Source: Patescibacteria group bacterium (GTDB lineage Bacteria; Patescibacteriota; Patescibacteriia; JAXHNJ01). From it: a stretch of 64,000 bases of DNA. The position numbers and the translations under genes are program-made. The stretch is taken from contig JBDRMK010000030.1 in the NCBI GenBank assembly GCA_043812155.1, forward strand, positions 8,407 to 72,406, read 5' to 3'. The notes beneath the pieces were generated by a model. The model saw only the letters and a list, made by a program, of their open reading frames with translations. It made no database searches and had not been told where the DNA came from. Of the stretch, positions 36,283 through 48,525 are shown one piece after another. Each line of letters starts with the position of its first letter. Position 1 is the first letter of the stretch.

Positions 36283-38250
36283 TTATTCTTTATTAATAAT
36301 TCTTAAATATTTTGAGGTTTTTTTAAAAAAACGGAAACGGCTGCCGCCGCCTTCCATGAATTTGGGGAAAAATTCCACGAACTGAAGCCGGCCGGAATGG
36401 ATGAAAGCGCCTAAGGAATTGATGGCGATATTAAAAATGTGGCCGCCGATCAGGATCAGAACAGCGAACAGATAGCCGACAAAGGGGATCATATCAATGG
36501 CCAGCCCGGCAATAAGATTGATGACCATGGCGATGATGCCAGTGGCCAGGCCCAAGGCGAGCAGCCGGGAGTAGGAAAGAGTGTCGGAAAGATAATTAAC
36601 CGCGCCGTATAAACTGTAAAGGCCGAGCAGGGGTTTTAAGAAAATATTTTTGGTCTGGCGGCCATTGGCGACAATGAGAGCGAGGACCGCGGCCAGCAGG
36701 AGATAAAGAAGAAAAGGATTTAAAGAGGCCGGAAGGACATTTACTTTTGCCAAAACCCAAAGGATCAAAATAAGCAAGCCTGAAAACCAAAGCCCCGGGC
36801 CTAACAAGCCTTCCGTTGCTTTTTTATGTTTTATTTTCCAGAAGCAGCTGATAAGCAGACCGGTCAGGATCTGGATAAGGCCGAAGCAAAAAGCGATGAG
36901 CAGGACCAGCAGGGGATTTTTGATCGGGTCTATAACTTTAAAAAATTCCACGAATTGCCGGAACCAATTATGAGACATGGTCGAGATGTCAATGCCGAAC
37001 CAGCTGCCGAACAGGGCGCCGACGATCAGAGTGGAAAGGCCGCCGTAGAAAAGCAGCCGGATAAGTTTCATTTCTGAAGCGGGTTTTTTGCTGATTTTCA
37101 GCATGGCGAACATCAGCGAACTGATGACCAGGCCGTAGCCGGCGTCGGAAACGCAGAAGCCAAAAAATATAAAAAAGAAGGGCGCCAGGTACGGAGTCGG
37201 GTCTGGCTCAGAAGGAAGGGGCATGCCGTAGATGCCGGTAACTGATTCAAAAGGCTCGATCAGATTATTATTTCTGATGACCACGGGCGGGTTTTCTCCT
37301 TCTTCCAGCGCCATTTTTTCCAGAGCGAAATTAGGGGTAATGGCCGCCATTTTATCCGATAAAACCTCGGCAAAACATTCTTCCATGAAAAAAAGCAAAG
37401 CAAAAGTTTTTTGCGTGCCGGTGGCTTTGTCCAAGGCTTCTTTCTGCTCTTTTTTCCAGGCCAGGTAATCGGAGACCAGCCGCAAATTGGGCAGATGAAG
37501 AGTGAGTTTCTTGATCTTATTTGCCAGTTCCTCCTTGTCTTTTTCCGCTTTGATTATTTCCCGCTGGCAGATCTCGGTTTCCCCCCGCGCCTGGCACTGG
37601 ACGGCCGGGATCTGAGCGGACTTGAAATCGAATTTAACCAATAAATCCTTGATATTTTTTTCCAGCTCTTTTTTATAGATCAAGGCGAAATGGACTTCGC
37701 GGTTCCCGATGTAAGATTTTTCAAAAGCGATATTTTTAAGTTTTTCCGTCGCTCTTAAAAACTCATCGTAATTATTTTCATTGACCGAGCCCAGAATGAT
37801 CTTGGTCTTTTCCGTTTCGATTTCGTTCTTCGGGATAAAATCCAGGTTGATCCAGGCGGCCATGATATTTTTCAGGCTTTTTTGCTTTTCAATAGTGCTT
37901 TCCAGCGCGTTAAGATTCGCTTCCGCTTCTTCGCAATCCGCCACCACTTTTTCGTAATCAAAATCCTTTACGAATTTGTTAAAATCTTTTTCTGTGAAAG
38001 CGGTTTTTTCCGGCAGCAGCTTTTTTTTCAATGGGATTTTTGCCGTGTCGTAAGGCGCTAAAAAATTCAGGGCGAAAACGACCTGGGCCAGAAGATATTC
38101 GGGATTGCTGTTTTGCTTGGCCTTCAGTTTTTCTTTCTTCTCCCAGTTTTCTATTTGGCAGGCGCCGAAATTATGGAGCAATTCAATGACCGCTTCCTGG
38201 TGGGCAAGAAGGGAGGTAAGGGCATATTTTGCGACGGGACTTTGCGCCAT
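36283..38250 (-). CDS. ntpI: V-type ATP synthase subunit I (a)
   Basis: N-terminal cytoplasmic coiled-coil domain plus C-terminal polytopic membrane domain, 655 aa. Confidence 0.85.
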   Translation of the reverse strand: MAQSPVAKYALTSLLAHQEAVIELLHNFGACQIENWEKKEKLKAKQNSNPEYLLAQVVFALNFLAPYDTAKIPLKKKLLPEKTAFTEKDFNKFVKDFDYEKVVADCEEAEANLNALESTIEKQKSLKNIMAAWINLDFIPKNEIETEKTKIILGSVNENNYDEFLRATEKLKNIAFEKSYIGNREVHFALIYKKELEKNIKDLLVKFDFKSAQIPAVQCQARGETEICQREIIKAEKDKEELANKIKKLTLHLPNLRLVSDYLAWKKEQKEALDKATGTQKTFALLFFMEECFAEVLSDKMAAITPNFALEKMALEEGENPPVVIRNNNLIEPFESVTGIYGMPLPSEPDPTPYLAPFFFIFFGFCVSDAGYGLVISSLMFAMLKISKKPASEMKLIRLLFYGGLSTLIVGALFGSWFGIDISTMSHNWFRQFVEFFKVIDPIKNPLLVLLIAFCFGLIQILTGLLISCFWKIKHKKATEGLLGPGLWFSGLLILILWVLAKVNVLPASLNPFLLYLLLAAVLALIVANGRQTKNIFLKPLLGLYSLYGAVNYLSDTLSYSRLLALGLATGIIAMVINLIAGLAIDMIPFVGYLFAVLILIGGHIFNIAINSLGAFIHSGRLQFVEFFPKFMEGGGSRFRFFKKTSKYLRIINKE

Positions 38251-38586: not shown

Positions 38587-38762
38587 AAATTGGGCTAAAT
38601 ATTAAAAAATCAAGTTTCTATTATACTGTTTTTTATATAAAAAATCAAGGGGAATCATGTGGATAAGTGATTCATTGGTAAATTTAGCTTATTTTAGGGA
38701 AAAAGTCTACCCCCTTTAAAAATTTATTGGCTTATTATAGCAAAAAAATATATAATATAGGT

Positions 38763-39461
38763 ATGAATTTACGAAAAATATACCGTCAATTATCGCAAAA
38801 ATACGGTCCTCAGGACTGGTGGCCTCTGTTAGATATCAAGATGTTGAGATATCGAGATATTTCCGCCCGAGGCGGACCGGCCTTGGGCCGGAAGATATCA
38901 AGAAAGAAAATTAAGGTATTTTCTGAGAAAAACATGTTTGAGGTCTGCCTGGGCGCGATCTTGACCCAGAATACGAATTGGAAAAATGTGGAGAAAGCCA
39001 TTTTAAATTTAAAAAGAAAAAAAATATTATCCCCAAGAAAAATATTAAATACGCCGCCAGGTAAATTAAGGGGGCTAATTCGTTCTTCCGGCTATTACAA
39101 TGAAAAAACCAAAAAGCTTATGACATATAGCTTATGGCTTATGGATAATTATAAGGGAAGTTTAAAGAAATTTTTTAAGCAATCATTAAAAAAGTGCCGC
39201 GAAGAATTGCTGGCGGTCCATGGCATCGGGCCGGAAACTGCCGACTCAATTTTATTATATGCCGGCCGCAAACCTTCTTTTGTCATTGACGCCTATACCA
39301 GGAGACTTTGTAAAAAATACGGAGTGGAATTCAAGACGTATGACGAGTACAAAGAATATTTTGAAAAGCGTTTGCCAAAGTCGTATAAATTGTATAATGA
39401 ATTCCACGCGCTGATTGTGCAATGGGGTAAGAATAATTCTTCAATCAGGAAGGTAGACTGA
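38763..39461 (+). CDS. HhH-GPD DNA glycosylase (endonuclease III-like) with in-frame repeat-element insertion
   Basis: GAILTQNTNWKNVEKAI, LxxLxGIGPETADSILLYA HhH-GPD motif; residues ~25-60 (LLDIKMLRYRDISARGGPALGRKISRKK) encoded by a dispersed repeat. Confidence 0.75.
   Translation: MNLRKIYRQLSQKYGPQDWWPLLDIKMLRYRDISARGGPALGRKISRKKIKVFSEKNMFEVCLGAILTQNTNWKNVEKAILNLKRKKILSPRKILNTPPGKLRGLIRSSGYYNEKTKKLMTYSLWLMDNYKGSLKKFFKQSLKKCREELLAVHGIGPETADSILLYAGRKPSFVIDAYTRRLCKKYGVEFKTYDEYKEYFEKRLPKSYKLYNEFHALIVQWGKNNSSIRKVD
38829..38915. repeat. Dispersed repeat: GATATCAAGAT-type AT repeat plus tandem GC triloop hairpins, inside glycosylase ORF
   Basis: TAGATATCAAGATGTTGAGATATCGAGATATT + CCGCC-CGA-GGCGG ACC GGCC-TTG-GGCCGG; related copies at 59741-59850 and 50355-50470 (reverse). 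Confidence 0.6.
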
Positions 39462-39490
39462 TCAGTCTACCTTCCGTTTTTTTGAAGTTG
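39455..39490 (+). terminator. Rho-independent terminator after glycosylase gene
   Basis: GGTAGACTGA-TC-AGTCTACC + TTCCGTTTTTTT. Confidence 0.75.
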
Positions 39491-39605
39491 TCTTTCGTAT
39501 CTTTTATAGTGCCGGCTTTCTAGCCTGCGCTGGTCTTCAAAATAAAAAGCGCCCGCGTTGTAAGATCGCTGGCGCAAATAGAAATATATATTCTGATCGG
39601 TTAAT

Positions 39606-39764
39606 TCAACTTTTCACGAATATATGTTTGAAAAGAGGACCAAGAGGAATCCAAACTCCGTATAGTATACGGATAGAGATAACCAGTGTTCCTAAGAAGT
39701 ATATACCTAATAGACAGTAAATAACGGCTAAATTCGCTAAAGCCTTTATTATTTCTAGCCACAT
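39606..39764 (-). CDS. Putative 52-aa small hydrophobic protein (not in ORF track)
   Basis: Hand-translated MWLEIIKALANLAVIYCLLGIYFLGTLVISIRILYGVWIPLGPLFKHIFVKS; AGGGAGG RBS; minus-strand terminator 39544-39580. Confidence 0.3.
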   Translation of the reverse strand: MWLEIIKALANLAVIYCLLGIYFLGTLVISIRILYGVWIPLGPLFKHIFVKS

Positions 39765-39862
39765 AGTAATTCCTCCCTTTTTAAAGAACCGAATTTATTT
39801 TATCGGTAATCAGGGGATATGTCAAATAAAGCCCGTTAGAATTCGAATTTTTAACAGGATAA

Positions 39863-39892
39863 AAAAGCGCCCTTAATCGATCTAAGGGCGCG
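39863..39892 (-). terminator. Terminator for Cys-rich gene cluster
   Basis: GCGCCCTTA..TAAGGGCGC hairpin with T-run on minus strand. Confidence 0.6.
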
Positions 39893-39916
39893 CGTGTTCC
39901 AATATTTTTCCTGATA

Positions 39917-40312
39917 TCATGAGTCGTCATGATCTCTTTGCGGTGAGCGAGTGAAGCCCAGGCCTTCTTCAACCCGGGCGATTTCCCGAGCGTGCCGGCC
40001 GGAACCGCCATCTTCCAGTCTCAAGCGGACTAGGCGCAGATAGTATTTGAGATAGCTCAGCACTTGACTGACACTTTCCTGGCGATAAAGATTTTCCGCC
40101 AATTTCGGCAGGTTAGGGTCGTCTTTCAGGGGGAAGGGAACCGGCATTCCTACCGAGCAAGGGCCGGATACAAAATGTTCACAAGGGGTTCTCTGGCGGA
40201 GGACTTTCTTTTTCACGGCACAGTCGGGATTATAGATCGTTTCTCTCATATCGGCCCAGGCCGTGGAAAAGTACTTGGCGCAGGTGGGTTGACGTGGACA
40301 GCAATTAGCCAT
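39917..40312 (-). CDS. Cys-rich hypothetical protein P3 (131 aa)
   Basis: Starts MANCCPRQPTCAKYF; ATG overlaps stop of P2 (TAATG); Cys knuckles CPRxxxC..YF and PCxxxxxxPC; GC-rich. Confidence 0.5.
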   Translation of the reverse strand: MANCCPRQPTCAKYFSTAWADMRETIYNPDCAVKKKVLRQRTPCEHFVSGPCSVGMPVPFPLKDDPNLPKLAENLYRQESVSQVLSYLKYYLRLVRLRLEDGGSGRHAREIARVEEGLGFTRSPQRDHDDS

Positions 40313-40518
40313 TATTTCTCCCTTCTTGCCCCCTTTTTTGCCAAAGGATAATTCTTTTTCATTTCGGCTAGGGCCCGTGCGTTTCGGCAGGCGCCGTTTT
40401 TCCAGAACAGGCAAGGGTGATGTTCCCGGCTTTTCTTGTCACCCTCCAGGACACTGGGATGAAAGTAGTGTCGGCATTTTTTCCGGCGCGGACATTTTGG
40501 TTCGTACGGCATAATCAT
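40312..40518 (-). CDS. Cys-rich hypothetical protein P2 (68 aa)
   Basis: KCPRRKKCRHYFHP...HHPCLFWKNGAC paralogous knuckle pattern to P3. Confidence 0.5.
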   Translation of the reverse strand: MIMPYEPKCPRRKKCRHYFHPSVLEGDKKSREHHPCLFWKNGACRNARALAEMKKNYPLAKKGARREK

Positions 40519-40533
40519 ACCTCTCAGTCGTAT

Positions 40534-40707
40534 CTACGCACTGATCACAGTTTTTTCGTGGTGCCTTGAATCGCTGTTACCGCAGATGCCATCCGGGCAA
40601 TACTGACAGGTTTCGTTATTTCGGCACCAGCCGTCTGCAAAAACGATAGCAGTCGGTTTTTTATAGCCCTGGCAGTGAATCTGATGGATGCAAAGATTTT
40701 TAACCAT
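40534..40707 (-). CDS. Cys-rich hypothetical protein P1 (57 aa from ATG; ORF track shows longer TTG start)
   Basis: MVKNLCIHQIHCQGY...GWCRNNETCQYCPDGIC; GGGGG/AAGG RBS. Confidence 0.45.
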   Translation of the reverse strand: MVKNLCIHQIHCQGYKKPTAIVFADGWCRNNETCQYCPDGICGNSDSRHHEKTVISA

Positions 40708-40816
40708 ACCTTTTACCCCCGGTTTATTGAAATGAGCGTTGATCAAAATGGATTATAAAATCTTAGCACAATAGCTCTATTAGTCAAATTCAAAAATTAG
40801 CCTTAAATTATTAATA

Positions 40817-40847
40817 AAAGAAAAACCCTCTTCATGAGAGAAGAGGG
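40817..40847 (-). terminator. Rho-independent terminator after membrane-protein gene pair
   Basis: CCCTCTTC-ATGAGA-GAAGAGGG with T-run on minus strand. Confidence 0.65.
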
Positions 40848-40879
40848 TTCGCGCTTATAGCGCTCGAGAACGTGCAGTG

Positions 40880-41785
40880 TTAGTCGACGAACTTTACGAC
40901 CGGGCAGATGTCGTTAAGAAACGCTTTGATCCAAAGGAGAGCAGGATTGCTTTCCTTGACTTTATTGACCGCGCGTTGGGACGGCCACTGTCCGAGACCC
41001 GTCCGGGTTTCCTCCCGTTTTTCCTCGCGGCGATCATGCCAGTCTTCGACGGCATCTTTTCCCGCGCTGACGCCGATAAACACGCCGATAAAAACGACGA
41101 TCACGCCGACGATAAACGGAATAATTGCGACAACCAGATGCTTCAGCCAGCCGTCGAAGATGACGATCGGGCTGACGTACAGAACGACTATCGCCACGAT
41201 GATCAGCGCGAAGACGTAGTTGCGGGAAGCGAGAATCCTTCCCTGTCCGCCGATCTCCGCCAGCTTTTTCATCAATTGCCCGATTGAACGGAAGAACGCG
41301 CCGAGCGTAGACACTGCGAGCCAAGCTCCCAGCAGGCTCAAGATGAAAACAGAGCCTACCCCGACGTACCAGTACCTTATCGCCGGAATACAGAGGGGGG
41401 AAAGGCCGACGATGAGGATGAGCAGGCCGCCGAAGGTCAGAAATCGGTTGACTCGGCAGGTGCACATCCGGCTGAATCCCGGGAAGAGGTACTTCCGGAA
41501 GGGCCAGGCAATTTTCTCCACGGGCCAGATGATCCCATACTCGAAGAGGAACCGGATGGCCTTGGCGAAGTACTTCATCGCCAAGAGAGCCGGGTAGAGT
41601 ATCGGGCAGAACACGAAGGTGGCGAAGACCGCCGGCCAGAACCAGAGGCAAATGTGCGATTCGTCCGGCACGTAGGTGTACCAGCAGCGGTTCTGGCGCA
41701 TGACTTTCCAGCCCCTATAGAGAAGGGATTTTTTCCGGATTTCCGGGGGATGGATGACGTGCGCGATGGTTGATCTGATGGTCAT
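40880..41785 (-). CDS. Polytopic membrane protein (301 aa), unknown function
   Basis: At least 6 TM helices; Cys-containing loops (MCTC); stop/start overlap with upstream gene (ATGA). Confidence 0.6.
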   Translation of the reverse strand: MTIRSTIAHVIHPPEIRKKSLLYRGWKVMRQNRCWYTYVPDESHICLWFWPAVFATFVFCPILYPALLAMKYFAKAIRFLFEYGIIWPVEKIAWPFRKYLFPGFSRMCTCRVNRFLTFGGLLILIVGLSPLCIPAIRYWYVGVGSVFILSLLGAWLAVSTLGAFFRSIGQLMKKLAEIGGQGRILASRNYVFALIIVAIVVLYVSPIVIFDGWLKHLVVAIIPFIVGVIVVFIGVFIGVSAGKDAVEDWHDRREEKREETRTGLGQWPSQRAVNKVKESNPALLWIKAFLNDICPVVKFVD

Positions 41786-42384
41786 GACCGATCACCTCCT
41801 TTGATCTTTACATCTTTCACGTATTTCAGATCGATTGGCTGTCCGGCCGCCATGATTTTGCCGGCGATCATCGACAGCGTGGAGTCGGTAGGACAGGCAA
41901 GGTACTGCCGGACGTCGCTTGCGACGTTGAGCGAGTTGAGGTTGGTGAGAAAGTATTCCCTGAGTCCATGATAGGGAAGATAGACCCTTTCATAGTACCT
42001 TTGGGTTTTTTCCAGACCATACCCTCGGATGCCTGTTGAGTCCAGCAAGGCGCATTTGAAGGTGAGCCTTGCCTTCTCGGTTACCCCGTAGGAATTGTAC
42101 AATTCGTAGCTAAACTCACGGGATTCATTTGCATCCAGCAAGAATCCCCGCGCCGGCAGCCCGAAATGAGCCAGACCGATGTGGGTGACCCGGCCGTTTT
42201 CGACCTGCGCCGAATTCCGGTCAATGTACGCCACATAGTTGAAGGTGAAGACAAAGGCGAATAGCCAGCAGAACAGCAGTTTCGCCACCCTCTTCTTTTC
42301 CTTCATCGGGGCGTAGTTGTCTTCGATCAGCGGGAAAACGCTGAACAGGAGAAGAACGATCAGAGTGGTCTCTAATCCGAACAT
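41782..42384 (-). CDS. Single-pass membrane-anchored protein (200 aa), unknown function
   Basis: AGGAGG RBS; N-terminal TM then soluble domain; translationally coupled to downstream membrane protein. Confidence 0.6.
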   Translation of the reverse strand: MFGLETTLIVLLLFSVFPLIEDNYAPMKEKKRVAKLLFCWLFAFVFTFNYVAYIDRNSAQVENGRVTHIGLAHFGLPARGFLLDANESREFSYELYNSYGVTEKARLTFKCALLDSTGIRGYGLEKTQRYYERVYLPYHGLREYFLTNLNSLNVASDVRQYLACPTDSTLSMIAGKIMAAGQPIDLKYVKDVKIKGGDRS

Positions 42385-42546
42385 AACTTCCTCCTTTTCT
42401 GGAAGTTAGGGGTTTTGGGTTTTCTTGCCACAGACTAGACTAGTTATCAAAGGCCGATCCGGATCCGAAAGTTTGCAGACTAACTGAATATACTATCACG
42501 TTTTTCCTTTTTTGTCAAGACTTCGGTTAAGGGCTATAATTTAAGC

Positions 42547-45500
42547 ATGAAAATCAACCCAGTGCAACATAAAGCCATTGAACACGGCCAAGGACCGTTG
42601 CTTATCGTCGCCGGGGCCGGGACGGGAAAAACTACGGTCATAGCGGAGCGTTTAGCCTATTTGATTAAAGAAAAGAAGGCTTTACCACAAGAAATTTTGG
42701 CTTTGACTTTCACGGATAAAGCGGCCGGGGAAATGGAGGAAAGGGCGGATATATTGCTGCCTTATGGTTACGTGGATCTGTGGATCTCTACTTTTCATTC
42801 TTTCGGGGAGAGAATATTGAAGGAACACGCCTTGGATATCGGCCTGGACCCGGGTTTTAAATTATTGAACTCGGTTGAGCAGTGGCGCATAATCCGGCAG
42901 AATTTCAGCCGGTTTGAGCTGGAATATTACAAGCCCTTGGGCAATCCCACCCGGTTTATTTACGCTTTGCTCAAAGTTTTTTCCCGAGCCAAGGACGAGA
43001 ATGTCAGCCCGGCCAATTTTCTGGCTTACGCGGAAAAGAAAATGAAAGCGGATAATGGCGAAGAGGCCCAAAGAATTTTAGAAGTGGCGAAAGCTTATCA
43101 GACTTACCAAACCCTTTTAACAGAAAAAGGCGAATTGGATTTCGGTGACCTAATTATCCGGGCTTTGGACCTTTTAAAACAAAGAAAAAATATCCTGGAA
43201 AAATATCGTCAGCAATTTAAATATATTCTCGTTGATGAATTCCAAGACACGAATTTCGCCCAGTATGAGATGCTGAAATCATTAGCCGCTCCAAAAAATA
43301 ATATTACCGTGGTGGGGGATGACGACCAGTGTTTGCCGGGTGAAACTTTGATAAAAACTAAGTTTGGAGAAAAGAAAATAAAAGATATAAAAGCCGGGGA
43401 TACAGTCTTGGCGGCCGTGGGCAAGGGCCATACCAGCTACTCGCCAGTAAAAAAGGTTTTTAGAAATAATAAAGAGGCCAGATTTTTACAAATTAAAACT
43501 AAATCCGGCCGAAAAATAGAAGTGACGGATAATCATAAAATGTTTTGTTTGGTACCGAAAGTTTCTGATAAGAAATATTATTATGTATATTTAATGCAGC
43601 GCCAGGGTTTTGGCTGGCGGCTAGGTATTACCAATGATTTGGCGACTCGATTGAGGTTAGAGCGTTCAGCGGATAAAATTATAGGCTTAAGGGCTTTTAA
43701 TAAAGAGATAGAAGCCAGATTCTATGAAAGTCTTTGGGCGGCAAAGTATGGCTTGCCGACGGTTTGTTTCTGCCCGCGCGACAATATGATAAGAGGTGAA
43801 TGGCTTGACCGGCTTTATCGATCAATTGGCACGGAAGAAAACGCCCGAAAGCTGGCATGTGATTTGCGCGTTGATTTAACCGCCCACCATTTTTGTCTTG
43901 ACAGTGTTTTTCGGGGGAATAAATTAAGAAACAAGATCAATCTTGAATTGTGTTACCGCCGTTATATCAGCAAGACCGGCCGCAAGTTTTTAGTTTCGCC
44001 AAAAGTGTCTCATCTTGTCAGTTTAGAGACCTCAAATTTGCAGGTGGTCGCCAGTTTAAGAAAAGGAGGGTATCAGGCCCATAGGGCGAAAAAGGGCTAT
44101 CGTTTTCGGGTAGAGAGTCCTGATATTGGAAAAGTCGGTAAGATCGCTTTGGCCTGGCAGAAAATATCCGCAGGAATACTTGAACAGAAATTTTCCGTGG
44201 GAAAAATAAAAATTCAGCACCGTAAAGCCTTGGTTATGCCGGCGGGCAACCTTTTGCCCGGTCATTATCTGCCGATCATAAAAGGCAAGGAAATAATTTA
44301 CGACCAGATTATTGAGATAAAAGAAGAAGTTAAAGCGCGAACTGTTTTTGATTTGGAAATAGAAAAAACGCACAATTTTATTGCTAATGGGGTGGTGGTG
44401 CATAATTCTGTTTATAAATTCCGCGGCGCGGCTATTTCCAATATCCTGGAATTCAAAAAAGATTTTCCAAATTGCGAGGAAATTGTCCTGACGGAGAATT
44501 ACCGCAACCGCCAGAACATCCTTGACTTGTCATACAAATTTATTCAGTTAAACAATCCGGACCGTTTGGAAGCGCGATTAGCCAAGAAGCAGATTGACGA
44601 CAAAGGTGAATTGCTGACCAAGAAAGTGACCAAAAAGTTGATCGCGCAAAATAAAGGTTTGGGGAAAATAGAACATTTGCATTTTATCACTCAAGAGGAA
44701 GAAGCCTTGGGGGTGGTGGAGAAAATATTGGCCATTAGAAAGAAAGACCGCAAATTGACCTGGAACGACTTTGCCATTCTGGTGCGAGCCAATGACCAGG
44801 CGAATATTTTTATTAATCTAATGAACAATCAGGAAATTCCTTATCAATACGTGGCTAATCGAGGTTTATACCAGAAACCCGAGATCATGGATCTGATCGC
44901 TTATTTAAAATTACTGGATAATTACCATGAAAGTACGGCTCTTTTCCGGGTGATTAACATGCCGATTTTTCATTTTGCGCCGGAAGACACGCATACTCTA
45001 TTAAATCACACTTATCGTAAAAATGTTTCTTTGTATGAAGCGATGCAAAGCGCGGAAGCGAGAGAAAAATTAAAACCTCAAACGCAGAAGGATCTGGATA
45101 AATTATTGGAAATGATCAATAAACACACGGCTTTGGCGTGCGAAAAAGGCGCGAGCCGGGTTTTGTTCCAGTTTGTGGAAGATTCCGGTTATTTCAAATA
45201 TCTTTCCAAAAAAGAGACGATTCAGAGCGCGGAAAGTATTTTGAACATCAACCAGTTTTTCAAGCAGACAGAGGAGTTTGAAAGATTGAACGCGGATAAA
45301 TCCGTGAAAAATTTTATCGCGGAGCTGGATCTGGCGATTGAAGCCGGAGAAGAAGGAGCCTTGGGCCATCAATCCATGGAAGAGGGGCCGGAAAGCGTCA
45401 AAGTGATGACCATTCATCAAGCTAAAGGCTTGGAGTTCACTCATGTTTTTATGGTTAATTTAGTGGATAAGAGATTTCCGTCTATTGAAAGAAAAGACCC

Positions 45501-46518
45501 AATTGAACTGCCGGATGAATTAATTCAGGAAATTATTCCCGAAGGAGATGTGCATTTACAAGAGGAAAGACGGTTATTTTACGTGGCCATGACGCGGGCC
45601 AAGCAGGGTCTTTATTTTACGACGGCTGAAGATTACGGCGGAATGCGGAAAAAACGTTTATCCAGATTTTTATATGAAATTGAATTGGAAAAATTCGGGC
45701 GAAGGGCCGGAGCAAAAATGAAACAGCAAAGACTGATCTTTGAAAAAATGGCCGGGCATAAAAATATCCTCACTTTAAAAAGAAATCTGGACTGGCTACC
45801 GCAGAAGTTTTCCTTCACCCAATTGAAAGCTTTTGAAGTCTGCCCCTATCAATACCGCTTCGCCCATATCTTACATGTGCCGGTCAAAGGCAAAGGCGCT
45901 TTTTCTTTCGGCAAAACCATTCATAACACCATGCACGAGTTTTATGTCGCCATCCAAAAAGGGGAAAAGCCGACTTTGGAAGACTTATTGGCGATGTATG
46001 AAAGAAATTGGATTGACGAGTGGTATGATGACAAGGCGCATGAAGAAAGAAGAAAAGCCAAAGGGAAACAGGTTTTGCAAGAGTTCTACAAAATTAATGA
46101 AAAAACCTTTAAGGCGCCGAAATTCCTGGAGCAGGGCTTTAACATAAAGATCGGCCTCCACACGATAAAAGGCTTTATTGACCGGGTGGACGAAATGCCG
46201 GATGGCCGGGTGGAAATTATTGATTATAAAACCGGCAATCTGCCCAAGGTAAAATCCAGTATTGATACCGAGCAATTGCTAATTTACGCCTTAGCCTGTC
46301 AGGACGTTTTTAAATTAAATCCGGCCAAATTGACCTTCTATTATATTGAAGATAATAAAACCTTTACTTACCAGTCTAGGCAGGAGGAGATAGAGGAGGT
46401 CAAAAAAAGAGTGGTGGGCACGATTGAGAAAATCCTGAAAAGCGATTTCAAGGCGACGCCGTCGCAATACAAATGTAAATACTGTGATTTTAAAGAAATT
46501 TGTGAATATAGAGTTTAA
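42547..46518 (+). CDS. UvrD/PcrA-family helicase fused to C-terminal Cas4/AddB-type PD-(D/E)xK nuclease, intein-containing (1323 aa precursor)
   Basis: Walker A GAGTGKTT, motif II VDEFQDT, motif III split as VGDDDQ | intein | SVYKFRGA; C-terminal nuclease IIDYKTG with CPYQYRF...CKYCDFKEIC cysteine cluster. Confidence 0.85.
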   Translation: MKINPVQHKAIEHGQGPLLIVAGAGTGKTTVIAERLAYLIKEKKALPQEILALTFTDKAAGEMEERADILLPYGYVDLWISTFHSFGERILKEHALDIGLDPGFKLLNSVEQWRIIRQNFSRFELEYYKPLGNPTRFIYALLKVFSRAKDENVSPANFLAYAEKKMKADNGEEAQRILEVAKAYQTYQTLLTEKGELDFGDLIIRALDLLKQRKNILEKYRQQFKYILVDEFQDTNFAQYEMLKSLAAPKNNITVVGDDDQCLPGETLIKTKFGEKKIKDIKAGDTVLAAVGKGHTSYSPVKKVFRNNKEARFLQIKTKSGRKIEVTDNHKMFCLVPKVSDKKYYYVYLMQRQGFGWRLGITNDLATRLRLERSADKIIGLRAFNKEIEARFYESLWAAKYGLPTVCFCPRDNMIRGEWLDRLYRSIGTEENARKLACDLRVDLTAHHFCLDSVFRGNKLRNKINLELCYRRYISKTGRKFLVSPKVSHLVSLETSNLQVVASLRKGGYQAHRAKKGYRFRVESPDIGKVGKIALAWQKISAGILEQKFSVGKIKIQHRKALVMPAGNLLPGHYLPIIKGKEIIYDQIIEIKEEVKARTVFDLEIEKTHNFIANGVVVHNSVYKFRGAAISNILEFKKDFPNCEEIVLTENYRNRQNILDLSYKFIQLNNPDRLEARLAKKQIDDKGELLTKKVTKKLIAQNKGLGKIEHLHFITQEEEALGVVEKILAIRKKDRKLTWNDFAILVRANDQANIFINLMNNQEIPYQYVANRGLYQKPEIMDLIAYLKLLDNYHESTALFRVINMPIFHFAPEDTHTLLNHTYRKNVSLYEAMQSAEAREKLKPQTQKDLDKLLEMINKHTALACEKGASRVLFQFVEDSGYFKYLSKKETIQSAESILNINQFFKQTEEFERLNADKSVKNFIAELDLAIEAGEEGALGHQSMEEGPESVKVMTIHQAKGLEFTHVFMVNLVDKRFPSIERKDPIELPDELIQEIIPEGDVHLQEERRLFYVAMTRAKQGLYFTTAEDYGGMRKKRLSRFLYEIELEKFGRRAGAKMKQQRLIFEKMAGHKNILTLKRNLDWLPQKFSFTQLKAFEVCPYQYRFAHILHVPVKGKGAFSFGKTIHNTMHEFYVAIQKGEKPTLEDLLAMYERNWIDEWYDDKAHEERRKAKGKQVLQEFYKINEKTFKAPKFLEQGFNIKIGLHTIKGFIDRVDEMPDGRVEIIDYKTGNLPKVKSSIDTEQLLIYALACQDVFKLNPAKLTFYYIEDNKTFTYQSRQEEIEEVKKRVVGTIEKILKSDFKATPSQYKCKYCDFKEICEYRV
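43330..44406 (+). mobile_element. Intein (359 aa) in helicase motif III
   Basis: Begins with Cys after DDDQ (block A CLPGETLI), block B TxxH (VTDNHKM), ends ...ANGVVVHN followed by Ser +1; extein junction restores VGDDDQSVYKFRGA. Confidence 0.8.
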
Positions 46519-46536
46519 TAAATTAATTAAAAAATT

Positions 46537-46941
46537 ATGCAAAATAAAATCGCCATTATAGTTTTCAGTTTCGTTTTGGCCATAATTACAATCTTTGTAA
46601 CTAATAACATAAAATCGGCCAGCTGGGTTGAAAATCCAGGCTGTGCCTATTATTCGGTCGGTTGGCCCATTAAAGTTGATACCCTTCAGGACAATTCTAA
46701 ACCCGTACCTCTTATGTGCGGTAGTTATCATGATTCTGGTAGTATTTTTAGAAATACTATCGGTAACATATTATTTTATTTTTCCTCCTTTTTCTTAGTT
46801 GGTTCCTTGATTTTTCATCGCAAGATAAAAAACTTCAAGCGTTTTCTACTTATTGCTTTAATTATTGCGGTGGTTTATTTAATACTTGATTTTTCTATTT
46901 TTCACATATATTTTCAGATTACAAGGAATATATACATATAA
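46537..46941 (+). CDS. Hypothetical membrane protein (paralog of 47417..47929)
   Basis: N-terminal TM, C-terminal TM pair; similar C-terminal region HRKIKNFKRF vs RHKIKNYRRF. Confidence 0.4.
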   Translation: MQNKIAIIVFSFVLAIITIFVTNNIKSASWVENPGCAYYSVGWPIKVDTLQDNSKPVPLMCGSYHDSGSIFRNTIGNILFYFSSFFLVGSLIFHRKIKNFKRFLLIALIIAVVYLILDFSIFHIYFQITRNIYI

Positions 46942-47010
46942 AAGAAAAAGTAGCTGATTGATTCAAGGAGATTTGCGAGTTTAGAGCGGTTTAGTTGTTG
47001 AGTTACTATT

Positions 47011-47052
47011 GTCACCCTGAGGAGCGAATGGCATGAGCCTCGAAGGGTGACG
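47011..47052. repeat. GC-rich palindromic element GTCACCCTGAGG...CCTCGAAGGGTGAC upstream of GIY-YIG gene
   Basis: 8-bp outer stem GTCACCCT/AGGGTGAC with nested GAGG/CCTC; inverted relative at 47339-47386; related copies 55605-55756. Confidence 0.5.
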
Positions 47053-47063
47053 TGTGAATAAAT

Positions 47064-47384
47064 ATGAGAACCTATTATGTTTATATATTAAAGTGTTCCG
47101 ACGGCTCTTACTATGCTGGTATTACTAATTATTTGGAAAGAAGAATTTACGAACACCAACAGGGCTTAATTAAAGGCTGTTATACCCATAGTCGTCGGCC
47201 CTTGAAATGCGTTTTTGCCCAGGATTTTAATGATGTGGGCTTGGCGATTCAGACGGAAAAGCAGATAAAAGGCTGGTCAAGGAAGAAGAAGGAATCATTG
47301 ATAAAAGGTGATTTTAACACGATAAAGTTATTTGCCAAACGTCCCGCTTCGAGGCTCCGCTTTCAGCGTCGCACCTCAGCGTGA
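47064..47384 (+). CDS. GIY-YIG nuclease-family protein
   Basis: YYVYILKCSDGSYYAGITNYLERRIYEH (GIY...YIG with Arg/Glu); C-terminal 14 aa encoded by the flanking palindromic repeat. Confidence 0.7.
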   Translation: MRTYYVYILKCSDGSYYAGITNYLERRIYEHQQGLIKGCYTHSRRPLKCVFAQDFNDVGLAIQTEKQIKGWSRKKKESLIKGDFNTIKLFAKRPASRLRFQRRTSA

Positions 47385-47416
47385 CAGTATTTATATAATA
47401 AGATAATTTCATAAAT

Positions 47417-47929
47417 ATGACCCCATTATTCAAAAAAAACGATCCGTCTTTGCCCTGGGACGAGAAAGTTGCCGAAGGGCCCCCAAAATCTGCGGAAGAA
47501 AAACCAAAAACAGAGATTCAAAAACCCAAAAGAATTAAAATTACTATCGTAATTGCCAGCGTGATATTAGCGATTGGACTTACTTATATAAGTTCATTTA
47601 TCAAAACTCAGAGCGCCTGGGATAAATGCTATAATAAGCAAAATGGGGGGCTTCCTTTTCAATATTCTCATCAACTTGAACAAATTATTCCTCCAAATAA
47701 GGCCTGTTATACTATTATGGGGGAAGAGGTGGCTTTTTTTCTTTTTCCGGAAATTATTTATGATTTTTCGATATATTTTTTGATTACTTCCATAATTATT
47801 TCTTACTTTTTTCGTCATAAAATAAAAAATTATAGACGTTTTGTCATCAAGCTAATAATATTCGCAGTTATAATCAGTATGATATCATGGCTTTTTTATT
47901 TATATTTATGGTCAAATTCGGATATTTGA
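47417..47929 (+). CDS. Hypothetical membrane protein (paralog of 46537..46941)
   Basis: Pro/Lys-rich N-terminus, TM helices; shared downstream ATTTGCGAGTTTAG repeat. Confidence 0.4.
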   Translation: MTPLFKKNDPSLPWDEKVAEGPPKSAEEKPKTEIQKPKRIKITIVIASVILAIGLTYISSFIKTQSAWDKCYNKQNGGLPFQYSHQLEQIIPPNKACYTIMGEEVAFFLFPEIIYDFSIYFLITSIIISYFFRHKIKNYRRFVIKLIIFAVIISMISWLFYLYLWSNSDI

Positions 47930-48017
47930 TAAAATATTAACAAGGCGATTTTTGGAAATTTGCGAGTTTAGGGTTGTTTGAGATGTCCAGATGTCTAGAT
48001 ATCAAGATATCGAGACA

Positions 48018-48380
48018 TCAAGATTTTTTGGCTAAACCGCTGATCATGCAATTTAGGCCAATGGCCAGGCCATTGTAGCTTTCGTCGATGACTTTGAAGT
48101 TTTCCTCTGGCAGGTATTTCTGATCCAAGGCGATCCTCAAATGGCTTTCAATTTCAAAAATTTCCGCCCGTGCAATATAAAGCACGCGGATTTTATCTTT
48201 GGGATGGTATCGGCCGTGGCTTTCCGCGATATTAGCTGCCACCGATACCGCCGATCTTCTTAACTGCATAGTTAAGCCGAAAATCTCGTTTTTCGGGAAA
48301 GCCTTGGTGATTTGGTAAATTTGGCTGGCAAGCGCCTGGGCTTTTTGCCAGACTTTTAAATCAAAAAAAGCGCGAGTCAT
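48018..48380 (-). CDS. Four-helix-bundle protein (Avd/23S-rRNA-IVS protein family, TIGR02436-like)
   Basis: DLKVWQKAQALASQIYQITKAFPKNEIFGLTMQLRRSAVSVAANIAES; flanked by inverted GATATCGAGA/CATCAAGAT repeats (47978-48016, 48447-48485). Confidence 0.8.
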   Translation of the reverse strand: MTRAFFDLKVWQKAQALASQIYQITKAFPKNEIFGLTMQLRRSAVSVAANIAESHGRYHPKDKIRVLYIARAEIFEIESHLRIALDQKYLPEENFKVIDESYNGLAIGLNCMISGLAKKS

Positions 48381-48496
48381 ATATATCCTTTCGCGCCACC
48401 ATTTTGTCTGTAATTATTTTATATTCGTTTATTAATTTTGTCAACGTCACCTCTCGATATCTTGACATCTTGACCTCTCGATATCTAAAACCATCC

Positions 48497-48525
48497 TTGA
48501 CAAACCCGGTTTTTTCTAATATACT
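48497..48525 (+). promoter_or_regulatory. Putative sigma70 promoter of typA
   Basis: TTGACA, 17-nt spacer, TATACT. Confidence 0.5.

What the first reader, a model, noticed from the sequence alone, without database searches (positions are those of the whole stretch)
43330..44406. Intein splitting helicase motif III of a UvrD-like helicase/Cas4-type nuclease fusion
The 1323-aa ORF has UvrD motifs I-II, then VGDDDQ directly followed by Cys and CLPGETLI (intein block A), a TxxH block B, and ...GVVVHN + Ser before SVYKFRGA resumes motif III. Removing 359 aa restores the canonical VGDDDQSVYKFRGA. The middle of the intein has no obvious LAGLIDADG, so it may carry a degenerate or different homing endonuclease. 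The host protein itself pairs a UvrD motor with a C-terminal RecB/Cas4-like nuclease bearing a 4-Cys Fe-S signature (AddB/AdnB-like in one chain).
Basis: partly seen in the sequence, partly recalled or inferred. Interest (0 to 1): 0.6.

Follow-up and report, generated by a model that had tools for sequence, protein, structure and literature searches.

The report
Intein carrying a GIY-YIG-like endonuclease

Summary
ORF 42547-46518 (+, 1323 aa) carries a 359-aa class-1 intein at 43330-44406: Cys1, TxxH block B, His-Asn end, Ser+1. It lies between VGDDDQ and SVYKFRGA of helicase motif III. Two orthologous genes (92% and 88% protein identity) lack exactly these 1077 nt, and only 4 of the 120 best orthologs carry an intein. 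The host is a UvrD/PcrA-like helicase fused to a PD-(D/E)XK nuclease whose four Cys are kept in 120 of 120 orthologs.

The new point is the intein's middle. It is not LAGLIDADG or HNH. Residues about 82-150 form a predicted beta-beta-alpha-beta-alpha unit with family-invariant Tyr, Arg-x-Gly, Arg and Glu. Four tests link it to the GIY-YIG superfamily:
- Sub-threshold Pfam hits in 17 of 65 relatives.
- Profile-profile probability 83%, about 8 SD above shuffled controls.
- Foldseek hits to phage GIY-YIG endonucleases.
- A best PDB sequence match to a GIY-YIG protein.

It is followed by an unclassified, probably DNA-binding part. The module defines a large intein family: 617 cluster representatives, at least four helicase sites and a phage methylase. 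No Pfam model covers it, and I found no paper describing it. Nuclease activity and splicing are inferred, not shown.

The parts
42547..46518 (+). Host gene: UvrD/PcrA-like SF1 helicase fused to a C-terminal PD-(D/E)XK nuclease. The precursor is 1323 aa and the mature protein 964 aa.
   Evidence: ORF. Pfam UvrD-helicase, UvrD_C and PDDEXK_1. Identical to the NCBI MAG Patescibacteria protein P0296.
42547..43329 (+). N-extein (aa 1-261). It holds motif I (AGAGTGKT), motif II (DEFQD) and the first half of motif III (VGDDDQ).
   Evidence: Aligns to L003 5987-6784.
43330..44406 (+). Class-1 intein, 359 aa: Cys1 ... His-Asn, followed by Ser+1.
   Evidence: Exactly the 1077-nt gap in the intein-less alleles L003 and L004. 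Foldseek gives TM-scores (normalised to the target) up to 0.85 against solved mini-inteins.
43330..43566 (+). N-terminal part of the Hint splicing domain (blocks A and B; T66-x-x-H69 at nt 43525-43536).
   Evidence: NCBIfam intein_Nterm on protein residues 262-333. Invariant T66, N68, H69. pLDDT 86-93.
43573..43779 (+). GIY-YIG-like nuclease unit (intein aa 82-150). Key residues are Y87, R97-x-G99, R107, E111 and E133.
   Evidence: Predicted b-b-a-b-a topology. Residues invariant across 65-139 relatives. Pfam GIY-YIG-clan hits in relatives. hhalign probability 83%, P 8.9e-6, against shuffled controls. Foldseek hits to phage GIY-YIG endonucleases. Best PDB sequence match is 1zg2.
43780..44127 (+). 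Second part of the inserted module (intein aa 151-266): two helices, then a b-b-a-b-b unit. It is unclassified; DNA binding and target recognition are inferred.
   Evidence: Structure elements. No consistent Pfam or PDB sequence match. Absent, together with the GIY-like unit, from mini-intein P0009.
44128..44406 (+). C-terminal part of the Hint splicing domain (linker helix, blocks F and G, ending ...GVVVHN).
   Evidence: NCBIfam intein_Cterm on residues 600-621. Retained in mini-intein P0009.
44407..46518 (+). C-extein. It starts with Ser+1 of SVYKFRGA (second half of motif III) and holds helicase domains 2A/2B and the nuclease.
   Evidence: Aligns to L003 6784-8889.
45808..46506 (+). PD-(D/E)XK (RecB/Cas4/AddB-like) nuclease domain with four conserved Cys (C1099, C1310, C1313, C1319), GFIDRVD, EIIDYK and QLLIY.
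   Evidence: Pfam PDDEXK_1 2.6e-37 on residues 1088-1320. Motifs present in 116-120 of 120 orthologs.

Best explanation
The segment 43330-44406 encodes a class-1 intein inserted in frame between Gln261 and Ser621 of helicase motif III.

**Splicing (inferred from the residues).** After translation the Hint domain should excise itself. Cys1 makes the thioester, and block B Thr-x-x-His assists. Ser+1 attacks to form the branched intermediate. The terminal Asn cyclises with help from the penultimate His. This restores VGDDDQSVYKFRGA and an active helicase-nuclease.

**The inserted module (homology supported; function inferred).** A roughly 185-aa module sits between blocks B and F, the usual place for an intein's endonuclease.
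- Its first 70 residues are a divergent member of the GIY-YIG (URI) nuclease superfamily. It keeps the 'GIY' Tyr, the Gly of 'YIG', the catalytic Arg and the metal-binding Glu. The second Tyr is replaced by an invariant Arg, and the helix-1 His by Glu.
- The rest is a helical plus beta-sheet part of unknown family.
- The layout resembles the two-part catalytic-plus-DNA-binding build of I-TevI-type enzymes.

**Homing (inferred).** The most likely function is homing. The module would recognise the uninterrupted motif III coding sequence of an intein-less allele and cut near it. Recombinational repair would then copy the intein in.

**Shown here:** the insertion, its exact borders, the empty alleles, the splicing residues, the homology signals, the family's size and its spread over several insertion sites.

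**Not shown:** splicing, DNA cleavage and target specificity.

**How the confidence breaks down:** intein about 0.98, GIY-YIG homology about 0.8, active homing endonuclease about 0.55.
For: **Intein and borders**
- ORF and junction residues.
- Pfam Intein_splicing 4.8e-19 and Hint 4.4e-11; NCBIfam intein N- and C-terminal models above their cut-offs.
- the whole-intein AlphaFold model (pLDDT 78.8) matches solved inteins, with E down to 2e-8 and target-normalised TM-score up to 0.85.
- the precise 1077-nt gap at 43330..44406 in two orthologous genes.
- the nearest orthologs (92% and 88% identity) are intein-less; only 4 of 120 carry an intein.
- P0009 has a 176-aa mini-intein at the same site that lacks the module.

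**GIY-YIG link**
- predicted strands 84-91 and 95-101, helix 104-110, strand 116-123, helix 126-140.
- Tyr, Arg-x-Gly, Arg, Glu and Pro are invariant in 65-139 diverse relatives.
- of 65 relatives scanned against all of Pfam, 17 hit GIY-YIG (best E 0.0022), 3 hit T5orf172 and 1 hit MUG113. I recall these three as one Pfam clan; one search's paper states only that T5orf172 is a GIY-YIG-superfamily member. No other family had more than 3 hits.
- the same scan on the second part of the module gave only scattered single hits, which serves as an internal control.
- the best PDB sequence match of the profile is the GIY-YIG protein 1zg2 (E 0.23), aligned on the motif.
- hhalign against 120 GIY-YIG proteins gives probability 83%, P 8.9e-6 and score 31.8. 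All of Tyr, Gly, Thr, Arg and Glu are in register. 150 column-shuffled controls gave 11.3 +/- 2.5, maximum 20.9.
- Foldseek against viral models returns GIY-YIG and group I intron endonucleases (probability up to 0.99; rmsd 2.7 A over 66 columns for one).
- the best PHROGs families are 'endonuclease' and 'homing endonuclease'.

**Mobility and family**
- 617 cluster representatives at E<=1e-3.
- same site, median length 361 aa, C1 / HN / +1 S, C or T.
- the same module occurs in inteins at motif II and other helicase sites.
- it also occurs in an intein of a Streptococcus suis prophage DNA methylase.
- in several relatives the intein is more similar to the window's than the exteins are.
- intein GC3 is 0.42, against 0.49-0.51 in the exteins.

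**Plausibility of activity**
- (PMC8263062): the paper argues that a T5orf172-type GIY-YIG variant lacking the usual His/Tyr but keeping the catalytic Arg and Glu should cleave DNA, and reports robust double-strand cleavage by it.
Against: - The window's own module gives no Pfam or NCBIfam hit even at E<=10.
- All Pfam GIY-YIG hits in relatives are weak (best E 0.0022), so probably below the gathering score.
- The hhalign probability of 83% is good but not decisive.
- Foldseek against the PDB with the module-only model gave nothing significant. Its top weak hits were LAGLIDADG enzymes and MotA, not GIY-YIG.
- The models rest on shallow alignments of 11-12 sequences, and the module-only model has pLDDT 70.9.
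- The second catalytic Tyr of canonical GIY-YIG enzymes is an Arg here and the helix-1 His is a Glu. No counterpart of the conserved Asn was identified.
- The nearest intein anywhere is only 55-61% identical, so there is no trace of a very recent transfer.
- No experiment bears on splicing or cleavage.
Confidence: 0.65

Rival explanations
1. The module descends from a GIY-YIG nuclease but no longer cuts DNA. It is a relic or structural spacer, and the intein now persists only by vertical descent and because its loss must be exact.
For: - The second Tyr is replaced by Arg and the helix-1 His by Glu, and no conserved Asn was found.
- The closest intein elsewhere is only 55-61% identical.
- Mini-intein P0009 shows the module can be lost while the Hint domain is kept.
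Against: - A relic should decay. Instead Tyr, Arg-x-Gly, Arg and Glu are invariant in 65-139 relatives from several phyla.
- This unit is the best-conserved part of the intein outside the splicing blocks: 39% mean column identity, against 23% for the second part.
- The distribution is sporadic, with 4 of 120 orthologs carrying an intein and the 92%-identical ortholog empty.
- The module sits in inteins at several sites and in different genes.
- An atypical GIY-YIG variant that keeps Arg and Glu is reported to cleave DNA.
Confidence: 0.2
2. The module is a very degenerate LAGLIDADG endonuclease, as in most inteins. The GIY-YIG signals are then convergent or chance.
For: - Weak Foldseek PDB hits of the module-only model to I-SmaMI, I-LtrI, I-CpaMI, I-OnuI and I-CreI (E 0.12-5, probability <=0.21).
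- Residues 168-280 are predicted as a-b-b-a-b-b-a, the LAGLIDADG core order.
- Endonuclease-bearing inteins score better than mini-inteins against the whole model.
Against: - No LAGLIDADG motif is present.
- No LAGLIDADG_3, Hom_end or other LAGLIDADG model hit the window protein at E<=1 or its module at E<=10.
- None appeared among the families shown for 65 + 44 relatives. In one search only 25 of 35 families were listed.
- Other inteins in the same proteins are recognised as LAGLIDADG_3 at 1e-14 to 1e-17.
- The first unit has no leading helix and is b-b-a-b-a.
- This rival could still hold for the second part alone, as a half-LAGLIDADG-like DNA-binding saddle.
Confidence: 0.06
3. The module binds nucleic acid or senses a signal that controls splicing of the helicase (conditional protein splicing), rather than driving homing.
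For: - The intein sits in a catalytic motif of a DNA-repair enzyme, so the precursor is inactive until spliced.
- The second part of the module has no assigned function.
Against: - Nothing in the sequence points to a sensor.
- The same module travels with inteins in different sites and in a phage methylase.
- Close relatives do without it, which fits a selfish element better than a host regulator.
Confidence: 0.08
4. The 359 residues are a lineage-specific host domain inserted in the helicase, not an intein.
For: None beyond the fact that splicing has not been observed.
Against: - Curated intein models match at both ends.
- The fold matches solved inteins.
- All splicing residues are present.
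- Orthologs at 88-92% identity lack it exactly.
Confidence: 0.01

Closest known systems
Class-1 inteins with an in-frame homing endonuclease (PI-SceI, PI-PfuI, PI-TkoII, TliVMA/PhoVMA)
   Same: - Hint splicing domain split by an inserted module between blocks B and F.
- Cys1, TxxH, His-Asn and a +1 nucleophile.
- Insertion in a conserved catalytic motif of a DNA-metabolism enzyme.
- These are the best structural matches.
   Different: Their inserted domain is LAGLIDADG. Here no LAGLIDADG signal exists, and the first unit aligns with GIY-YIG nucleases.
GIY-YIG homing endonucleases of group I introns and free-standing phage genes (I-TevI, I-BmoI, Seg proteins)
   Same: - Small b-b-a-b-a catalytic unit with Tyr, Gly, Arg and Glu in the same order and spacing.
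- It is followed by a separate, presumably DNA-binding part.
- Foldseek hits to such phage enzymes.
   Different: - Those are independent proteins; this one is embedded in frame in an intein.
- The 'YIG' Tyr is Arg, the helix-1 His is Glu, and no Asn was identified.
- The second part gave no consistent Pfam or PDB match, so no NUMOD or helix-turn-helix DNA-binding motif of the I-TevI kind was seen.
- Pfam GIY-YIG does not match the window sequence.
Fractured genes with split inteins and a free-standing GIY-YIG or Vsr-like endonuclease gene between the halves (Dassa et al. 2009, PMC2677866)
   Same: An association of intein splicing elements with a GIY-YIG-type nuclease in DNA-metabolism genes.
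   Different: - There the nuclease is a separate ORF between two gene halves.
[quoted passage not shown]
- Here the intein is contiguous and the nuclease-like unit is in frame.
T5orf172 / MUG113 branch of the GIY-YIG superfamily (e.g. ICP1 phage Odn/Gp88)
   Same: - An atypical motif set that keeps the catalytic Arg and Glu.
- 3 of 65 relatives hit T5orf172 and 1 hit MUG113.
- A T5orf172 protein appears among the fold hits.
- The paper reports DNA cleavage by Gp88/Odn.
   Different: - The sequence similarity is weak.
- Those are stand-alone proteins or fusions to other DNA-binding domains, not intein modules.
Known UvrD/Rep/PcrA helicase inteins
   Same: Inteins in SF1 UvrD/Rep/PcrA helicases are listed in reviews (PMC5874633).
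   Different: - That review places helicase inteins at the P-loop. This one, and the 119 relatives analysed, sit in motif III.
- I found no description of their endonuclease type.
AddAB / AdnAB helicase-nucleases and Cas4 (for the host protein)
   Same: - A UvrD-like motor joined to a RecB-family nuclease.
- A four-Cys pattern C-x(n)-C-x2-C-x5-C as in AddB and Cas4.
- Partial NCBIfam matches to addA, addB and cas4.
   Different: - It is a single chain about 964 aa long.
- All equivalog scores are below their cut-offs: cas4 48.1 against 65, addA 178.8 against 707.65, pcrA 467 against 911.
- No partner subunit was examined.

Membership tests
Intein (class 1) | Hint-fold splicing domain with blocks A, B, F and G | tested here: met
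   - Pfam Intein_splicing 4.8e-19 and Hint 4.4e-11.
- NCBIfam intein_Nterm and intein_Cterm above their cut-offs.
- Foldseek target-normalised TM-score up to 0.85 against solved inteins.
Intein (class 1) | Cys/Ser at position 1, block B Thr-x-x-His, penultimate His, terminal Asn, and Ser/Cys/Thr at +1 | tested here: met
   C1, T66-D-N-H69, H358-N359 and S+1. The same pattern holds in 119 relatives.
Intein (class 1) | In-frame insertion in a conserved host motif, with intein-less alleles of the same gene | tested here: met
   Exact 1077-nt gap in L003 and L004. Orthologs at 92% and 88% identity have no Hint domain.
Intein (class 1) | Protein splicing actually occurs | not testable with these tools
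   This needs expression of the precursor and detection of the ligated exteins and the free intein.
GIY-YIG nuclease superfamily | Core fold: three-stranded sheet with flanking helices (b-b-a-b-a) | tested here: met
   - The predicted elements at intein residues 84-140 have this order.
- Foldseek hits to GIY-YIG endonucleases in BFVD have probability 0.90-0.99 but E 0.05-0.5.
- This rests on a model, not a structure.
GIY-YIG nuclease superfamily | Significant sequence or profile match to the family | tested here: inconclusive
   - The window sequence gives no Pfam hit.
- 17 of 65 relatives hit PF01541, but weakly (best E 0.0022).
- hhalign gives probability 83%, P 8.9e-6, z about 8 against shuffles.
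- The best PDB sequence match is GIY-YIG protein 1zg2 at E 0.23.
GIY-YIG nuclease superfamily | First-motif Tyr ('GIY'), catalytic Arg and metal-binding Glu | tested here: met
   Y87, R107 and E133 are invariant in relatives. They align with Y7, R27 and E65 of the GIY-YIG profile.
GIY-YIG nuclease superfamily | Second-motif Tyr ('YIG'), and His/Tyr in helix 1 | tested here: not met
   - The Tyr position is an invariant Arg (R97) and the His position is Glu (E111).
- G99 of the motif is kept.
- One known branch (T5orf172) also departs from the canonical set by lacking the helix-1 His/Tyr.
GIY-YIG nuclease superfamily | Conserved Asn after the Glu | tested here: inconclusive
   No invariant Asn lies downstream of E133. 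Conserved instead are Y140, P143 and F147 (the Y-G-I-P-T..F stretch).
GIY-YIG nuclease superfamily | Metal-dependent DNA cleavage | not testable with these tools
   This needs a cleavage assay on the intein-less site.
LAGLIDADG homing endonuclease | One or two LAGLIDADG helices and a match to LAGLIDADG profiles | tested here: not met
   - There is no motif.
- No LAGLIDADG or Hom_end Pfam hit for the window protein or its module.
- None among the families shown for its relatives (one search listed 25 of 35 families).
- Second inteins in related proteins are detected as LAGLIDADG_3.
HNH homing endonuclease | HNH/beta-beta-alpha-metal motif and profile match | tested here: not met
   No HNH family appears in any Pfam scan of the intein or its relatives.
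UvrD/PcrA/Rep helicases (NCBIfam equivalogs) | Score above the equivalog cut-off | tested here: not met
   pcrA 467 against 911, rep 388 against 951 and uvrD 362 against 1144. The Pfam UvrD-helicase and UvrD_C domain models are met, so it is a UvrD-family SF1 helicase but not an equivalog of these three.
Cas4 / AddB-type iron-sulfur nucleases | PD-(D/E)XK motifs plus four Cys (one N-terminal, C-x2-C-x5-C C-terminal) | tested here: met
   C1099, C1310-x2-C1313-x5-C1319, GFIDRVD, EIIDYK and QLLIY. The four Cys and QxxxY are kept in 120 of 120 orthologs and the (D/E)xxDYK motif in 116 of 120.
Cas4 / AddB-type iron-sulfur nucleases | Equivalog score; bound Fe-S cluster | tested here: not met
   TIGR00372 cas4 scores 48.1 against 65, and addB_alphas 50.7 against 486.5. 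Cluster binding cannot be tested here.

The most novel reading that the evidence does not exclude
This intein belongs to a large family that has gone unrecognised: over 600 sequence clusters across Patescibacteria, Omnitrophota, Bacillota and phages. Its homing endonuclease would be an in-frame GIY-YIG-superfamily nuclease (the Tyr-to-Arg variant) joined to a new DNA-recognition part. That would add a further endonuclease class to those known inside contiguous inteins, and would be a second, independent capture of a free-standing endonuclease by a Hint domain.
Probability: 0.5. Interest if true: 0.7.

Novelty: new variant of a known kind. Interest (0 to 1): 0.55.

Why it matters
Inteins themselves are well known, and standard domain models already flag this one. 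The endonuclease class is the point of interest.

- **Endonuclease class.** In the papers I could read, contiguous inteins are said to carry LAGLIDADG or HNH domains. Vsr-like and endonuclease VII-like enzymes are encoded as separate or out-of-frame ORFs. One paper says outright that GIY-YIG is not known in inteins.
- **Evolution.** An in-frame GIY-YIG-type module in hundreds of inteins would show that Hint domains have captured homing endonucleases more often, and from more families, than assumed.
- **Annotation.** It would give a name to a conserved domain that no Pfam model covers.
- **Tools.** It would offer a compact monomeric nuclease with a new DNA-recognition part, aimed at a very conserved helicase coding sequence.
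- **Host biology.** In this reduced Patescibacteria genome, this helicase-nuclease depends on protein splicing to become active.

Tried and rejected
- **Foldseek of the module-only model against the PDB.** Nothing was significant, only weak LAGLIDADG and MotA hits. I do not take this as support for LAGLIDADG.
- **Profile of the whole intein against PDB sequences.** It found only Hint and intein N-terminal matches, nothing for the middle.
- **Second part of the module (aa 151-266).** Per-member Pfam scans and a PDB profile search gave only scattered chance hits such as EDS1 and E3_binding. Its family is unresolved.
- **Other-frame or antisense endonuclease ORFs inside the intein,** as in some actinophage inteins. 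There are only a 115-aa low-complexity antisense ORF and three ORFs of 49-71 aa. The 115-aa ORF has no Pfam hit; the three short ones were not scanned. Rejected.
- **Structured RNA in the window.** Rfam found none.
- **Literature.** Searches for 'UvrD intein', 'PcrA intein', 'GIY-YIG intein', intein + T5orf172 and inteins + Patescibacteria found no description of this module. The library lacks most subscription journals, so this is not proof of absence.
- **Partial homologues of about 606 aa.** I suspected something biological, but P0001 simply runs off its contig end. Rejected as an assembly artefact.
- **dN/dS.** I did not attempt it, because the closest intein-bearing genes are about 55% identical and synonymous sites would be saturated.
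Full report
**1. The observation**

The window holds one long ORF at 42547..46518 on the + strand, 1323 aa. VGDDDQ ends at residue 261. Residue 262 is the Cys of CLPGETLI, residues 619-620 are His-Asn, and residue 621 is the Ser of SVYKFRGA. The 359 residues in between are encoded by 43330..44406, exactly the coordinates given.

Domain models agree. Pfam finds UvrD-helicase on residues 4-262, Intein_splicing (E 4.8e-19) on 276-620, Hint (4.4e-11), UvrD_C on 646-1028 and PDDEXK_1 on 1088-1320. NCBIfam's intein N-terminal and C-terminal models both score above their curated cut-offs. Block B is T66-D-N-H69 of the intein and is invariant in relatives. An AlphaFold model of the intein (mean pLDDT 78.8) matches solved inteins. 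E-values reach 2e-8, and target-normalised TM-scores reach 0.85 for mini-inteins.

**2. Insertion, not host domain**

The spliced 964-aa sequence was searched against the protein collection.
- The window protein itself is on record as a Patescibacteria MAG protein (P0296).
- The two closest orthologs, P0297 (92% identity) and P0298 (88%), are 965 aa and have no Hint or intein domain.
- Only 4 of the best 120 orthologs carry an intein.

I fetched the DNA of both empty alleles and aligned the three genes. There is a single gap, 43330..44406 in window coordinates, between ...GATGACGACCAG and TCTGTTTATAAA... The flanks are 79% and 83% identical. A relative, P0009, has a 176-aa mini-intein at the same site.

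The intein's GC3 is 0.42, against 0.49-0.51 in the exteins. That is a modest compositional difference.

**3. The middle of the intein**

No Pfam or NCBIfam model matches intein residues 80-290, even at E<=10. The closest relatives found by word search are 11 UvrD-like proteins of Patescibacteria and Omnitrophota MAGs. In these, the best-conserved stretch outside the splicing blocks is Y-V-Y-L-M..G-W-R-x-G-x-T..L..R-L-x-L-E-R-S-A-D...E....E.

A profile of this module was run against 1.84 billion cluster representatives. It found 617 proteins at E<=1e-3 and 262 at E<=1e-10.
- Ten sampled hits are UvrD-family helicases or intein fragments (one gave no Pfam hit at all), with an intein around the module in most.
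- In 119 hits where the borders could be read, the site is the same (xGDxxQ | C...HN | S/C/T-IYxWRGA). The median intein length is 361 aa.

Across 139 of these relatives, Tyr (of V-Y-L-M), Gly (of R-x-G), Glu and Pro are invariant, and the Arg of R-x-G is present in 99%. The downstream Arg (R107) is invariant in the 65-sequence alignment but present in only 81% of the 139.

**4. Is the first unit a GIY-YIG nuclease?**

The predicted secondary structure of intein residues 84-140 is strand, strand, helix, strand, helix. That is the order of the GIY-YIG core. Four tests followed.

- **(a) Pfam, member by member.** Sixty-five diverse copies of the unit were each scanned against all of Pfam. Seventeen hit GIY-YIG (best E 0.0022), three hit T5orf172 and one hit MUG113. 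I recall these three as belonging to one Pfam clan; among the papers read, only T5orf172's membership of the GIY-YIG superfamily is stated. No unrelated family had more than three hits. The same procedure on 44 copies of the second part of the module gave only scattered single hits, so the method does not produce such a pile-up by itself.
- **(b) PDB sequences.** The profile's best match is 1zg2, a UPF0213 GIY-YIG protein. The E-value of 0.23 is weak, but the alignment falls on the motif.
- **(c) Profile against profile.** The window itself encodes a free-standing GIY-YIG protein at 47064..47384 (Pfam 3.3e-17). I collected 120 of its homologues and ran hhalign between the two profiles. The result is probability 83%, P 8.9e-6 and score 31.8, over 53 columns with no gap in the first 31. 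Y87, G99, T101, R107 and E133 fall on the Tyr of GIY, the Gly and Thr of YIG-x-T, the catalytic Arg and the catalytic Glu. One hundred and fifty column-shuffled versions of the target gave 11.3 +/- 2.5, maximum 20.9, and the reversed profile gave 10.8.
- **(d) Fold search in viral models.** Foldseek with the module-only model first returns three large phage proteins that evidently carry the same module: a helicase, a methyltransferase and one unnamed protein (E 1.8e-8 to 6.7e-5). It then returns a run of GIY-YIG enzymes: the 'G-I-Y-Y-I-G endonuclease' of Mycobacterium phage Chuckly (probability 0.99), several group I intron endonucleases, an iridovirus GIY-YIG protein (rmsd 2.7 A over 66 columns) and a T5orf172 protein.

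PHROGs gives 'endonuclease' and 'homing endonuclease' families as the most frequent matches.

Some results point the other way.
- The Tyr of 'YIG' is an invariant Arg and the helix-1 His is Glu.
- No conserved Asn was found.

A T5orf172-type enzyme that also lacks the usual His/Tyr but keeps Arg and Glu is reported to cut DNA (PMC8263062). Such departures therefore do not rule out activity.

I conclude that homology to the GIY-YIG superfamily is likely (about 0.8), and that nuclease activity is plausible but untested.

**5. The second part of the module**

Intein residues 151-266 are predicted as two helices followed by strand-strand-helix-strand-strand. This part is much less conserved (23% mean column identity) and matches no family.

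Its position after the catalytic unit recalls the DNA-binding half of I-TevI-type enzymes. Its a-b-b-a-b-b-a order, counted with the following linker helix, and the weak LAGLIDADG and MotA fold hits leave open that it is a saddle-like DNA-binding fold. This is inference.

**6. Signs of mobility**

- The module travels with Hint domains in other places. Multi-intein helicases carry it at motif II (DEAQDLNK|C...SHN|C) and at further sites, as well as at motif III.
- The ParB-N6 DNA methylase of Streptococcus suis prophages carries it in an intein (QHEP|C...THN|C) that GenBank annotates only as methyltransferase.
- Klebsiella phage KP2025's helicase has a similar intein after its UvrD N-terminal domain.
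- In several relatives the intein is more similar to the window's than the exteins are, for example P0002 (56% against 36%) and P0030 (45% against 28-33%).
- Family members come from Patescibacteria, Omnitrophota and Bacillota.
- However, the nearest intein is only 55-61% identical, so no recent donor is sampled.

**7. The host protein**

Motifs I, II and III are those of SF1 UvrD-type helicases. The NCBIfam pcrA, rep and uvrD equivalog scores are well below their cut-offs. The C-terminal domain has the RecB-family motifs and four Cys (C1099, C1310, C1313, C1319), and the four Cys are kept in 120 of 120 orthologs. The partial cas4 and addB matches are also below their cut-offs.

**8. Comparison with the literature**

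- Inteins in UvrD/Rep/PcrA helicases are listed in a review (PMC5874633).
- Dassa et al. 2009 found free-standing GIY-YIG genes between split-intein halves. [quoted passage not shown] - I found no paper describing an in-frame GIY-YIG-type intein module or this helicase motif III family. The library is incomplete, so this is not proof.

**9. Verdict**

The intein and its borders are certain and, as such, ordinary. The GIY-YIG-like endonuclease module is the interesting part. It is a new variant of a known kind: well supported as remote homology, with activity and homing still to be shown.

Noticed in passing
window 46519-48015: Compared with the intein-less ortholog locus L003, two extra cassettes lie just after the helicase gene. 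Each ends in a degenerate copy of the gene's last ~30 nt (GATTCAAGGAGATTTGCGAGTTTAGAG at 46960-46992 and 47947-47979), as if elements had inserted into the 3' end and brought a replacement end. Cassette 2 carries a free-standing GIY-YIG gene (47064-47384). ORFs 46537-46941 and 47417-47929 have similar membrane-like C-termini.
   Followed up: partly
window 47970-48497: The 23S_rRNA_IVP / bAvd-like gene (48018-48380, minus strand) is inverted relative to L003. It is flanked by 46-nt inverted repeats (47970-48015 and 48452-48497, 83% complementary), which suggests an invertible segment.
   Followed up: partly
window 39432-42532: A GC-rich island (0.52-0.59, against about 0.40 nearby) replaces the pyrophosphatase/methyltransferase segment of L003. 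The two ORFs scanned, 40880-41785(-) and 41782-42384(-), have no Pfam match. A third ORF, 39917-40414(-), was not scanned. The island is probably acquired DNA.
   Followed up: partly
P0081, P0088, P0107, P0120, P0143 (proteins): Giant UvrD-like helicases (1086-2536 aa) carry two or three inteins with the same GIY-YIG-like module at different sites: after motif II (DEAQDLNK|C), at motif III and elsewhere. P0081 also carries a LAGLIDADG intein.
   Followed up: partly
L001 1382-3493 (Streptococcus phage Javan558, MK448983.1): The ParB-N6 adenine methyltransferase of S. suis prophages contains an unannotated intein (QHEP|C...THN|C) with the same module (C-T-Y-L-M..R-W-R-V-G-I-T). It lacks much of the second part.
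   Followed up: partly
L002 1493-4372 (Klebsiella phage KP2025, PP919962.1): The 'putative DNA helicase' is a UvrD-like protein with an intein (Pfam Hint/Intein_splicing on residues ~255-600) directly after its UvrD N-terminal domain. The intein carries a distant copy of the module (26% identity over 94% of it).
   Followed up: no
P0001, P0003, P0004, P0005; L005: Several of the closest relatives are partial proteins of 571-610 aa that stop inside the last ~40 residues of the intein. For P0001 the gene simply runs off the contig end, so assemblies tend to break within this intein.
   Followed up: partly
window 36283-38250 (-) and 38727-39461 (+): Neighbouring genes include a V-type ATPase subunit I-like protein and an HhH-GPD base-excision glycosylase. 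The latter is syntenic with L003.
   Followed up: no
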